A stretch of 64,000 nucleotides of DNA from the NCBI RefSeq assembly GCF_009914755.1, contig NC_060936.1, one strand, 5' to 3'. Shown here one piece after another: positions 10,340 through 64,000 of this stretch. The notes beneath the pieces are model-generated. The model was not told the DNA's origin and did no database searches. It worked only from the letters and a program-made list of their open reading frames with translations. The position numbers and the translations under genes were made by a program. The stretch is from the human T2T-CHM13v2.0 reference genome, Homo sapiens. Every line of letters starts with the position of its first letter. Within the stretch, counting starts at the first letter, position 1.

Positions 10340-11215
<876 letters not shown>

Positions 11216-18174: not shown

Positions 18175-19625
<1,451 letters not shown>

Positions 19626-44919: not shown

Positions 44920-45690
44920 CAACACTCAGATATTTAGTAGGCATCTCAAACTTGCTATTTCCACAACTATACTGATTATCGTCCCTGCATAACCACTCCT
45001 TCTGCCATCTACCCCATTTCCATAATTGCAAACTCTATCCTTCTCATCATCCTCAACTCCTCTTTCTCTCATGCCACGTGAATCCAGCAGCAAGTCCTGC
45101 CTGCTCTACTTTCAGGGTATCGCCCGAAATCTGACCACGTCTCACCTCTCCCAAGGCTACCTCCCTGGTCCAAGCCACCATCACCTCTCACTCGGGATGT
45201 GGCACCAACCTTCTTACTGGTCACTCTGTGGCATCCCGTACTCTCCACTTCACAGCCAGAGGGATCCTGTTACATCCTAAACCAGACCATGTCACTACTC
45301 TATTCAAAATGAGCAGCATGCTCCAACCTCATGACATTTGCACTACAGCCCCGTCTGCTTGGAATTCTCTGCTACAGAAATCTGCAAGGCATACTCCCTC
45401 ATTCCCTTCCTTCAGGCCACCGCTCTGCCATCTGTCACCTCCTCAGTGAGCCTTCTCTGAATACCCTTTATCAAATAGAACCCTCTCCACTACCCCAGCA
45501 CCCAGCCTTCTCTATTTTCCTTCACCTGCTTTCTTTTTCCCCATAGTCATGTTCCATTTGTATCTATGTAACACCTATGATGTACCAGCACATAAACTTC
45601 ACAAGGGCAGAAGTATGTCTGTCCCAGCGAAATCCTAGGCACCCAGAACAATTCTGGCAAGGAGTAAATATTTGCTGAATGAATGAATAG
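44920..45690 (+). mobile_element. L2 (L2a-like) 3' ~770 bp
   Basis: ggcatctcaaactt...ccagcagcaagtcctg...ctggtccaagccaccatca...cacagccagagggatc...aaatatttgctgaatgaatgaa. Confidence 0.9.
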
Positions 45691-45751
45691 TTTCTCTTTG
45701 CTCTGGAACATGTAAGGATTAGTCCAGAAGGGTACACTATTACTGAGATCA

Positions 45752-62686: not shown

Positions 62687-62990
62687 GTCTTATTTCCATT
62701 GGTGAATCCTGGTGGAATACTTTGCTCTAGACAGTGCTAGGGTATATACAGATCCTCTAAGAGGTCATCTTAAAGCTTTGACTTCAGGAGTCCTGAGAAA
62801 TATCTTCCTAAAACTAAAAACTCCCCCAGAGACCAATTGATTTGATTTAAATCATGTGGCTGATTGTTTTCCGAACACAACAATATTTTCCATTCTATAT
62901 GCTCTTCTACAATATGACCTTGCACCCTCCCATCCAGCGGTTGGGGTTTGTGTTCCCATCCTTTAGACCTGGGTGGGCTGTGACTGTTTC

Positions 62991-63097
62991 GACCAGTAGA
63001 GTCTAATAGAGTATGGCAGAAATTATATTGTGTAACTTCTAAGGTTTTGACCAGTAGAGTCTAATAGAGTATGGCAAAAGTTATATTGTGCAACTTC
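62991..63097. repeat. Direct tandem duplication of a 49-bp unit, period 58 bp
   Basis: gaccagtagagtctaatagagtatggca.aa.ttatattgtg.aacttc at 62991-63039 and 63049-63097 (46/49 identical). Confidence 0.95.
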
Positions 63098-63284
63098 ATA
63101 AAAAGCAATACCGCTTCTGCCCTGTCCACTAAGACACTTATGCTAGAACCTCAAAACACCATGTAAGAGTTCCAACTAACCCTGAGGCTGCCACACTAAG
63201 AGGAAGCCCAGGCCACATGGAGAGGCCATATGTAAGTGCTAAGCGATGGCATTTTTAAGTGATCCCAGCTCCTGTAAGTAAATC

Positions 63285-63410
63285 TGCCTTGCAGATTTCT
63301 GTAGCAGAGAATTCCAAGCAGAGGGGGCTGTAGTGCAAAGGTCACGAGGTTGGAGTGAGCTGTTCGTTTTGAACAGAGGAGTGCCATGGTCTGGTTTAGG
63401 ATTTAACAGG
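63285..63410 (-). repeat. Inverted copy of 45266-45391, flanked by 45-bp inverted repeats (63228-63272 / 63416-63460)
   Basis: Hand alignment: 114/126 identical with no gaps; arms 40/45 identical. Confidence 0.93.
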
Positions 63411-64000
63411 TCCTGGGAGCTGGGATCACCTAGAAATCCCTTCGCTTAGCACCTACATATCCCAGCCATTGAATTATGTCCAGATTAGACCTTAGACATC
63501 TTGGAGCAGAGAACACCTGTCTGCACCTTCTATCAAAACTTCTGAGTCACAGAATCTGTTACCTAATGAAATGGTTGTTTATACCATTAAGTTTTTGGAC
63601 ACTTTGTTACACAGCAAAGATAACTGGAACAAAGTGGATCTCTTTGGAATGCAAATGTCTATCAGTATGAGAAATATAAACAATCAGAATTGCAGAGTAT
63701 ATATTCACTTGTTTATTTATTCACTTACTCTCTTACATCCCCGTTTATGAACACACGCATGCTCTCCTAATTTATTCACGTACTTATCCAAAAGCATGAT
63801 AAATTCTCACTATGAACAGAGATACCCTCTGAGACTTCACTTGGCAATGGGGATTCATTCATTCATTTCATAGATATTTATTGCCTGGGAAGTGTTCCTC
63901 AGAGATGTATCAAAATAGGAACAGACTTTCTTTCCTGCTTTGGTTGGAAAAATCCCAGGGAAGGCACCTCATTGGCTCTGTTGGATGGTGTGTCCAATGC

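What the first reader, a model, noticed from the sequence alone, without database searches (positions are those of the whole stretch)
63228..63460. Fossil templated insertion: 126 bp copied from 18 kb upstream, inverted, and wrapped in a 45-bp inverted duplication inside an MLT1 LTR
Seen: 63285-63410 is the reverse complement of 45266-45391, with 114/126 identical positions and no gaps. The ORF track shows it too (TFALQP.LLGILCYRNLQG at 45331+ and 63196-). The insert is bracketed by atatgtaagtgctaagcgatggcatttttaagtgatcccagctcc (63228-63272) and its inverted copy (63416-63460, 40/45 identical), with short linkers, no polyA and no TSD. Knowledge: independent L2 copies are normally far more diverged than 10%. 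Both copies here also appear to share the same internal L2 deletion, so this looks like a copy of this specific locus rather than a second L2 insertion. Inference: one repair event with several template switches (Pol-theta/TMEJ or MMBIR/FoSTeS type), first to a site 18 kb away and then a fold-back onto its own flank. Similar divergence (~10-11%) in insert and arms supports a single event in primate ancestry and implies the two sites were physically close. The product is a new MITE-like hairpin cassette (45-bp stem, 143-nt loop) made without a transposase.
Basis: partly seen in the sequence, partly recalled or inferred. Interest (0 to 1): 0.8.

Follow-up and report, generated by a model that had tools for sequence, protein, structure and literature searches.

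The report
Ancient template-switch repair scar in LTR
An old retrotransposon LTR on human chromosome 12 carries a one-off repair scar in which about 50 bases were lost and 188 were copied in from an L2 repeat 18 kb away and, inverted, from the scar's own flank; this is a clean fossil of a known mutation process, not a new mobile element.

Summary
63285-63410 is an ungapped inverted copy of 45266-45391 (114 of 126). It is bracketed by 45-nt inverted arms, 63228-63272 and 63416-63460 (40 of 45).

In the whole assembly the insert's best non-self hit is that one locus, and the reverse search agrees. Both junctions are unique at up to 3 mismatches. No MITE family was found.

New here:
- The left arm is native LTR sequence.
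- About 45-55 nt of the LTR are missing at the insertion point, so this is a deletion-insertion, not a plain insertion.
- Five of the 12 "linker" bases form a perfect 8-bp micro-palindrome with the start of the copy (null P 0.0016). This is a snap-back signature.
- An outgroup L2 copy follows the 45-kb locus past the copy boundary, so that locus is the donor.
- A private 58-bp direct re-copy lies 130-190 bp upstream.

Best reading: an ancient, fixed templated deletion-insertion made by template-switching synthesis (MMBIR or synthesis-dependent end joining). It was probably one event, roughly anthropoid in age.

Single versus two-step origin, the date and 3D proximity remain untested, because no primate orthologues were available. 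This is a known kind of event and of modest interest.

The parts
62905..63635 (+). Host element: one copy of a multi-copy LTR family (MLT1-type MaLR LTR by recollection). Limits are approximate.
   Evidence: 10 other genomic copies align to it on both sides of the cassette. L012 aligns from 62905, and alignments run to about 63630.
63228..63272 (+). Left arm X: native LTR sequence, and the template of the right arm.
   Evidence: It is continuous with the upstream LTR. Local alignments of 3 of 10 family copies run to 63270-63272 (L007, L012, L013). BLAST hits of 3 copies (L003, L010, L012) reach 63240.
63273..63279 (+). Linker part a, TGTAAGT. Origin is open: untemplated, or a short direct re-copy of 63231-63237.
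   Evidence: The same 7-mer occurs at 63231-63237. However, the right arm and 6 of 10 family copies have G where the left arm has A at 63235, so the match may be only 6 of 7 at the time of the event.
63280..63284 (+). Linker part b, AAATC: snap-back or strand-switch templated bases.
   Evidence: 63280-63287 (AAATCTGC) is the perfect inverted repeat of 63291-63298 (GCAGATTT) with a 3-nt loop. A stem of 8 or more occurred in 8 of 5000 random linkers, P 0.0016.
63285..63410 (-). Templated insert: inverted copy of 45266-45391.
   Evidence: 114 of 126 identical, ungapped. It is the best non-self hit in the whole assembly in both directions.
63411..63415 (+). Linker 2, TCCTG.
   Evidence: It forms a 4-bp inverted match with the end of the copy, which is not significant (P 0.12). 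TCC could be donor sequence with a 1-nt gap (reading).
63416..63460 (-). Right arm X': inverted duplicate of the left arm.
   Evidence: 40 of 45 complementary to 63228-63272. Its orientation is opposite to the LTR, so it cannot be native.
63272..63461 (.). Deletion point: about 45-55 nt of the LTR that should lie between 63272 and 63461 are absent.
   Evidence: L012 and L013 align up to 63270 and 63272 and again from 63461, with 57 and 43 of their own bases between. The net excess in 7 other copies is 23-72; L015 was dropped because its right alignment was poor.
45266..45391 (+). Donor segment, retained in place inside an old L2-type element.
   Evidence: Other copies of the family are collinear over 45065-45241 and 45251-45309, crossing the 45266 boundary (L019, L021, L028, L030, L006). 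L006 follows the donor, not the insert, beyond the boundary.
62986..63101 (+). Private 58-bp direct re-copy in the same LTR. It is possibly part of the same event.
   Evidence: Copies 62986-63039 and 63044-63097 share 50 of 54 positions. The window holds 57 and 61 extra bases here relative to L012 and L014.

Best explanation
This is a fixed, ancient deletion-insertion scar left by template-switching DNA synthesis while a break or collapsed fork inside an MLT1-type LTR was repaired.

About 45-55 nt of the LTR were lost and 188 nt (63273-63460) were written in, in this order:
- 7 nt of unclear origin;
- 5 nt made by a tiny snap-back or strand switch on the adjacent copy;
- a 126-nt tract copied from an L2 element 18 kb upstream, in inverted orientation;
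- 5 nt;
- a 45-nt inverted copy of the LTR sequence that abuts the break on the left.

The donor stayed intact, so this was copy and paste. No transposase or retrotransposition is involved.

Shown: the parts, their templates, the direction of copying (45 kb to 63 kb), uniqueness in the genome, the deletion, and the micro-palindrome.

Inferred:
- All of this happened in one event. I put this at about 0.6, against about 0.2-0.25 for two steps.
- The enzymology was MMBIR-like or synthesis-dependent alternative end joining.
- The date is near the catarrhine-platyrrhine split. This rests on about 10% pairwise divergence and on recalled primate branch lengths.

One detail favours synthesis primed from the right-hand end that ran off the left-hand break end: the inner edge of the inverted arm coincides exactly with the last retained LTR base (63272). 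A fold-back of the left end onto itself gives the same product.
For: - Insert identity and sharp ends.
- Genome-wide uniqueness and reciprocity. The next best hit to the insert is only 45 nt at 89% (L006).
- Junctions are unique at up to 3 mismatches: 1 forward and 0 reverse hit each, controls 0.
- The left arm is native and the deletion is present.
- The donor is embedded in a longer L2-type element, and the outgroup follows the donor past the boundary.
- The 8-bp junction micro-palindrome has P 0.0016.
- Divergence is equal within error: 12 of 126 (K2P 0.102), 5 of 45 (K2P 0.121), Fisher p 0.77.
- Both lineages changed after the copy. At the 5 differences in 63366-63410, L006 sides with the insert at 4 and with the donor at 1.
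- The pair is more alike than any Alu-sized pair in the window.
- Literature, passages read: multi-template insertions with template switches in normal human germlines and tumours (PMC8421209); short-range template switches that create inverted repeats in great apes, copied tract median 12 and maximum 128 nt (PMC7954356); Pol theta alternating between untemplated, snap-back and in-trans synthesis (PMC4912351); class 2 templated sequence insertions without TSD or poly(A), 73-414 bp at induced breaks (PMC5110952).
Against: - No clear microhomology at the junctions that can be read. Junction 2 has a 4-bp inverted match that is not significant (P 0.12), and at most GGA with a 1-nt gap at the donor edge.
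- The junction of the right arm with the LTR cannot be judged, because the ancestral bases are deleted.
- A single event is not demonstrated. The confidence intervals on divergence are wide (5.0-16.0% and 3.7-24.1%).
- A 126-nt tract from 18 kb away is long for Pol theta.
- A fold-back that starts exactly at the original 3' end lacks a visible primer-template match.
- The genome search scores only the best candidates and skips very common words (tool text), so very old diverged relatives of the cassette could be missed.
- No orthologous sequences were examined.
Confidence: 0.72

Rival explanations
1. Two-step history. First a short-range template switch replaced about 50 nt of the LTR with an inverted copy of the flank, making a near-perfect 45-bp palindrome with a short spacer. 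Later the unstable palindrome broke at its centre and was patched with a 126-nt templated insertion from 18 kb away.
For: The insert sits exactly at the centre of symmetry. Short-range switches alone routinely give such inverted repeats, and 29.5% of them shorten the sequence (PMC7954356, passages). Divergence estimates cannot separate events a few million years apart. That long palindromes are prone to central breakage is recalled knowledge, not read here.
Against: It needs two rare events at one spot. The arm and insert divergences are indistinguishable. Multi-template single events are documented (PMC8421209, passages).
Confidence: 0.2
2. The 126-nt patch came from RNA. A fragment of an intronic transcript covering 45.3 kb was reverse-transcribed and captured at a double-strand break by end joining (a class 2 templated sequence insertion). 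The inverted arm was added by fill-in or fold-back synthesis.
For: The features match class 2 TSIPs: no TSD, no poly(A), a deletion at the target, extra bases at the junctions, and a retained donor. The size lies within the 73-414 bp range of induced events (PMC5110952, passages). Donor and target both lie within the span of the predicted lncRNA LOC105370003 (annotation supplied with the finding). Snap-back at a cDNA end could also give the 8-bp micro-palindrome (inference).
Against: The lncRNA model is only predicted, and its expression in the ancestral germline is unknown. Nothing in the sequence tells an RNA template from a DNA template. Experimental TSIs mapped to 18 of 24 chromosomes with no preferred region (PMC5110952, passages), so a donor only 18 kb away in cis points more to local DNA templating.
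Confidence: 0.07
3. An unrecognised MITE or DNA-transposon family with 45-bp terminal inverted repeats that captured an L2 fragment.
For: It has 45-nt inverted termini and a hairpin-forming cassette. The ends read ATAT, so a TA duplication cannot be excluded from the ends alone.
Against: No second copy of the cassette, of either arm or of either junction was found in the assembly. The left arm is native LTR sequence shared with other copies of the LTR family to its last base. Host sequence is deleted at the site. The interior is 90% identical to a locus 18 kb away and to nothing else.
Confidence: 0.01

Closest known systems
MMBIR-type templated insertions (MMB-TI) and FoSTeS/MMBIR complex events
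   Same: An insertion built from two or more templates by successive template switches. The templates are local (inverted flank) and more distant. Donors are retained. Such events occur as germline variants in healthy people (PMC8421209, passages read).
   Different: Microhomology of 2-12 bp was found at 80% of 103 tumour MMB-TIs analysed, with a mean of 3.7 bp (PMC8421209). Here microhomology is absent, 3 nt or less, or unreadable. This scar is ancient and fixed, not a polymorphism or a somatic event.
Short-range template-switch mutations (four-point model; Loytynoja and Goldman; Walker et al. 2021)
   Same: The right arm is a reverse-complement copy of adjacent sequence that replaces the original bases and creates an inverted repeat able to form a hairpin (PMC7954356, passages read).
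   Different: The four-point model has one excursion within a fork, with a copied tract of median 12 and maximum 128 nt. Here a 126-nt tract from 18 kb away sits between the arms, so at least two excursions are needed.
Class 2 templated sequence insertion polymorphisms (Onozawa and Aplan)
   Same: No TSD, no poly(A), a microdeletion and extra bases at the junction, an intact donor, and a patch of about 100-400 bp (PMC5110952, passages read).
   Different: Those patches are reported as RNA-derived and as coming from anywhere in the genome. This donor is 18 kb away in cis, the patch is joined to an inverted flank copy, and polymorphism could not be checked.
Polymerase theta end-joining scars
   Same: A mix of unexplained bases, a snap-back tract (the 8-bp micro-palindrome) and flank-derived inverted sequence (PMC4912351, passages read; PMC5068794, search listing only).
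   Different: Typical insertion tracts are short (median 7 bp in PMC4912351). Here the tracts are 45 and 126 nt.
MITEs
   Same: Terminal inverted repeats and a hairpin-like cassette of about 230 nt.
   Different: It is single-copy, one terminus is host sequence, host sequence is deleted, and no family was found.

Membership tests
MITE / DNA transposon | Many dispersed copies sharing termini | tested here: not met
   Whole-assembly searches with the cassette, the insert and both junctions found only this locus and the donor. Caveat: the search scores only the best candidates.
MITE / DNA transposon | Termini foreign to the insertion site, flanked by a target-site duplication, with no loss of host sequence | tested here: not met
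   The left terminus is native LTR sequence in 3 of 10 family alignments, to 63270-63272. About 45-55 nt of host sequence are missing.
LINE-1-mediated insertion (class 1 TSIP / retrocopy) | Poly(A) tail, TSD of 5 bp or more, and a TTTT/A target (criteria from PMC5110952) | tested here: not met
   No A or T tract at either end of 63273-63460. The flanking CCCAGC motifs are two separate native LTR motifs, 43-57 nt apart in L013 and L012.
Class 2 templated sequence insertion | No TSD or poly(A); microdeletion, microhomology or untemplated bases at junctions; donor retained | tested here: met
   The donor is intact at 45266-45391.
Class 2 templated sequence insertion | RNA-derived patch; polymorphic among humans | not testable with these tools
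   No transcript or population data were available.
Short-range template-switch mutation (four-point model) | A reverse-complement copy of nearby sequence replaces the original bases and creates an inverted repeat | tested here: met
   The right arm 63416-63460 is the inverted left arm (40 of 45), and the LTR bases are replaced.
Short-range template-switch mutation (four-point model) | A single local excursion explains the whole cluster | tested here: not met
   126 nt between the arms come from 18 kb away.
MMBIR templated insertion | Inserted tracts each traceable to a template, several in series | tested here: met
   Of the 188 inserted bases, 126 + 45 + 5 are traced to templates.
MMBIR templated insertion | Microhomology at switch points | tested here: inconclusive
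   Junction 1 shares 3 nt (TGC/GCA) within the 8-bp palindrome. Junction 2 is not significant. The last junction is unreadable because the ancestral bases are lost.
Polymerase theta end joining | Short snap-back or flank-templated tracts mixed with untemplated bases | tested here: inconclusive
   The snap-back signature is present, but the tracts of 45 and 126 nt far exceed the median of 7 bp (PMC4912351).

The most novel reading that the evidence does not exclude
The 58-bp direct re-copy at 62986-63101, the loss of about 50 nt, the 45-nt fold-back, the 126-nt copy from 18 kb away and the 5-nt snap-back are all one germline replication accident with five or more template switches within 500 bp, a miniature chromoanasynthesis. 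It would be fixed since about the anthropoid ancestor. It would then be a datable record that the two sites 18 kb apart touched in an ancestral germline nucleus. It would also have created from nothing a 45-bp-stem hairpin inside a lncRNA intron, which could serve as a double-stranded RNA substrate.
Probability: 0.2. Interest if true: 0.45.

Novelty: new member of a known kind. Interest (0 to 1): 0.3.

Why it matters
It is a tidy, fully resolvable fossil of multi-template repair synthesis in the human germline lineage. Every inserted base but about 12 can be assigned to a template. The direction of copying is proven by an outgroup, and a statistically supported snap-back sits at one junction.

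Such cases calibrate what template switching leaves behind after tens of millions of years. They show how long inverted repeats and hairpins can arise without transposons. They also warn repeat annotators that an 'L2 fragment' can be a recent local copy.

It does not reveal a new mechanism or a functional element. Rfam found nothing, and no gene is nearby (annotation supplied with the finding).

Tried and rejected
- Rfam scan of 62900-63800 at E up to 1 gave 0 matches. The hairpin is not a known RNA family.
- The search for L2 relatives across the right donor boundary failed. A query of 45340-45490 returned only itself and the insert. Sensitive BLAST of 15 L2-bearing loci aligned no further than 45309. 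So the 'shared internal L2 deletion' and L2 continuity past 45391 could not be tested. A MAFFT alignment of those copies was too noisy downstream of about 45330 to use.
- The search for a local template for the linkers within +/-1.5 kb of the target was uninformative, because my filter returned only the self match. Near the donor it gave 8-mers, one of which (AAATCTGC at 45378) led to the micro-palindrome test.
- The junction 2 micro-palindrome (4 bp) was rejected as chance (P 0.12).
- The 7-mer TGTAAGT shared with 63231-63237 is left open. It is weakened by the G at the matching position in the right arm and in 6 of 10 family copies.
- A first version of the simulation timed out and was rerun.
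- Folding only restates the inverted repeat: DNA z -7.0 and minus-strand RNA z -8.2.
- No primate orthologues, Hi-C or Micro-C data, or population data could be reached with these tools.

Full report
**Observation**

The window region 63000-63700 and the proposed donor 45000-45700 were read.

- 63285-63410 is the reverse complement of 45266-45391 at 114 of 126 positions with no gap.
- Homology ends abruptly. Of the 10 bases beyond each end only 5 and 2 match, and of the 20 bases beyond only 5 and 3.
- The arms 63228-63272 and 63416-63460 are 45 nt each and 89% complementary (40 of 45), with 143 nt between them.
- In a self-comparison of the whole window, 90 repeat pairs were listed. The four most alike are a 43-nt pair (11157/18909), a 54-nt tandem pair at 62986/63044, the 126-nt pair and the arms. 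Every Alu-sized pair is 86% identical or less.

**Is it a family?**

The window's own assembly (3.1 Gb) could be searched.

- With 63200-63490 as query, the only matches to the insert were itself, the donor (90% over 126 nt) and a 45-nt, 89% match on another chromosome (L006).
- The only matches to the arms were the arms themselves. The other 10 hits covered only query positions 1-41, which is the LTR flank.
- The insert alone gave the same 3 places.
- The donor region 45100-45560 returned the insert as its best non-self hit. The remaining 14 hits were L2-type copies at 74-86% identity over a different part, 45103-45229.
- Each junction, searched as a pattern with up to 3 mismatches, occurs once, and the reversed control pattern occurs 0 times.
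- Caveat from the tool text: only the best candidates are scored and very common words are skipped, so the counts are lower bounds.
- Within that limit there is no arm-insert-arm family, and no other L2 copy matches the insert comparably.

**Host and deletion**

Ten other copies of the flanking repeat (L003, L007-L015) align to the window on both sides of the cassette. I recognise the family as an MLT1-type MaLR LTR; the name is recalled.

- Local alignments of the left flank end at 63270-63272 in 3 of 10 copies (L007, L012, L013) and at 63229-63240 in the other 7.
- Alignments of the right flank begin at 63461 in 2 of 10 (L012, L013) and at 63463 in 2 more (L009, L014).
- The left arm is therefore native LTR sequence to its last base. 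The right arm, being inverted, is the copy.
- L012 and L013 have 57 and 43 bases of their own between the two anchor points. The net excess in 7 further copies is 23-72 bases; L015 was dropped because its right alignment was poor.
- About 45-55 nt of the LTR are thus missing. The event is a deletion-insertion: roughly 50 nt lost and 188 nt gained (63273-63460).
- The motif CCCAGC on both sides of the inserted block is two separate native motifs of the LTR, not a target-site duplication.
- There is no poly(A).

**Direction of copying**

- At 45 kb the segment lies inside a longer old repeat. Other copies of that repeat are collinear over 45065-45241 and 45251-45309 in L019, L021, L028 and L030, and over 45257-45309 in L006. 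These alignments cross the 45266 boundary.
- In a three-way comparison, L006 goes on matching the donor beyond the boundary while the insert departs.
- So the 45-kb locus is the donor and 63 kb is the recipient.
- At the 5 donor/insert differences in 63366-63410, L006 agrees with the insert at 4 and with the donor at 1. Both copies have therefore drifted since the event.
- I could not align outgroup copies beyond 45309. Continuity past 45391 and the 'shared internal L2 deletion' therefore rest on recollection of the L2 3' end and on the ungapped alignment only.

**Junctions**

- The 12-nt linker is not all filler. 63280-63287 (AAATCTGC) is a perfect inverted repeat of 63291-63298 (GCAGATTT) with a 3-nt loop. 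It comprises the last 5 linker bases plus the first 3 bases of the copy.
- With 5000 random 12-nt linkers placed before the same copy, a junction-spanning stem of 8 or more arose 8 times (P 0.0016).
- This is the pattern expected from a snap-back of a nascent end on itself, or from a switch between the two strands of the donor. It argues for polymerase template switching rather than ligation of a ready-made fragment.
- The remaining 7 nt (TGTAAGT) equal 63231-63237 of the left arm. However, the right arm and 6 of 10 family copies have G where the left arm has A at 63235, so this is left open.
- At junction 2 only a 4-bp inverted match exists (P 0.12).
- Microhomology at the last junction cannot be read, because the ancestral bases are deleted.

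**Age**

- Differences are 12 of 126 in the insert (6 transitions, 6 transversions, 3 at CpG; K2P 0.102). They are 5 of 45 in the arms (K2P 0.121). Fisher p is 0.77, and pooled they are 17 of 171, or 9.9% (95% CI 5.9-15.4%).
- Two copies in one genome diverge at twice the human-lineage rate. With recalled branch lengths (about 3% since the macaque split and about 5% since the marmoset split), about 10% points to roughly the catarrhine-platyrrhine ancestor, with a wide margin. This is inference and was not tested.

**Mechanism**

The parts fit a single bout of template-switching synthesis at a break or collapsed fork.

- In one version, the left 3' end is extended, copies the donor, then folds back on its own strand.
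- In the other version, the right end primes on the left end at 63228 and runs off at the break (63272). It then copies the donor, snaps back for 5 nt and is joined.
- The second version explains why the inner edge of the inverted arm coincides with the last retained LTR base. The first does not.
- The literature shows each ingredient is known:
  - multi-template insertions in normal germlines (PMC8421209, passages);
  - short-range switches that create inverted repeats in great apes, with copied tracts of median 12 and maximum 128 nt (PMC7954356, passages);
  - Pol theta alternating between untemplated, snap-back and in-trans synthesis, with median insertions of 7 bp (PMC4912351, passages);
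  - class 2 templated sequence insertions of 73-414 bp without TSD or poly(A), reported as RNA-derived (PMC5110952, passages);
  - template switches as a source of RNA hairpins and miRNAs (PMC8794818 and PMC10710096, search listing and abstract starts only).
- The tract lengths here (45 and 126 nt) fit MMBIR-like synthesis, or a captured patch, better than typical Pol theta tracts.

**Rivals**

- A two-step history (palindrome first, centre break and patch later) explains the central position of the insert equally well. It can only be separated from one event with orthologues.
- An RNA-derived patch cannot be excluded.
- A MITE is excluded as far as the tools reach.

**Neighbourhood**

- The same LTR carries a private 58-bp direct re-copy (62986-63039 and 63044-63097, 50 of 54 identical).
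- Relative to L012 and L014, the only 2 of the 10 family copies with BLAST alignments on both sides of it, the window has 57 and 61 extra bases there. By eye it replaces a few LTR bases, so it is another small deletion-insertion.
- Three of the four most alike repeat pairs in the 64-kb window lie within 62986-63460.
- This hints at one complex event or a locally fragile site. It is not shown.

**Function**

- Nothing suggests function. There is no Rfam match.
- The strong folds (DNA z -7.0; minus-strand RNA z -8.2) merely restate the inverted repeat.
- The site lies in an intron of a predicted lncRNA, far from protein-coding genes (annotation supplied with the finding).

**Verdict**

- It is a new example of a known kind of mutation and of modest interest.

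Noticed in passing
window 62986-63101: A 58-bp direct (tandem) re-copy inside the same LTR, 50 of 54 identical. It is absent from the two family copies that align on both sides (57 and 61 extra bases in the window). By eye it replaces a few LTR bases. It lies 130-190 bp upstream of the cassette and is of similar divergence, so it may belong to the same event.
   Followed up: partly
window 63356-63358 versus 45318-45320: Three adjacent differences (TGA versus CAT in insert orientation) among only 12 differences in 126 nt. This could be a multi-nucleotide change, either a copying error of the repair polymerase or a later cluster. The outgroup L006 is poorly aligned here.
   Followed up: no
window 11157-11199 and 18909-18951: The most similar repeat pair in the window's self-comparison (95% over 43 nt). 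It adjoins Alu-sized repeats at 10863-11165 and 19285-19590 and is probably part of those elements.
   Followed up: no
L006 (another chromosome), locus positions 1501-1545: An L2-type copy that is 89% identical to the insert over 45 nt, which is unusually close for two old L2 copies. It seems to reflect a well-conserved stretch of the family. It was useful as an outgroup.
   Followed up: partly
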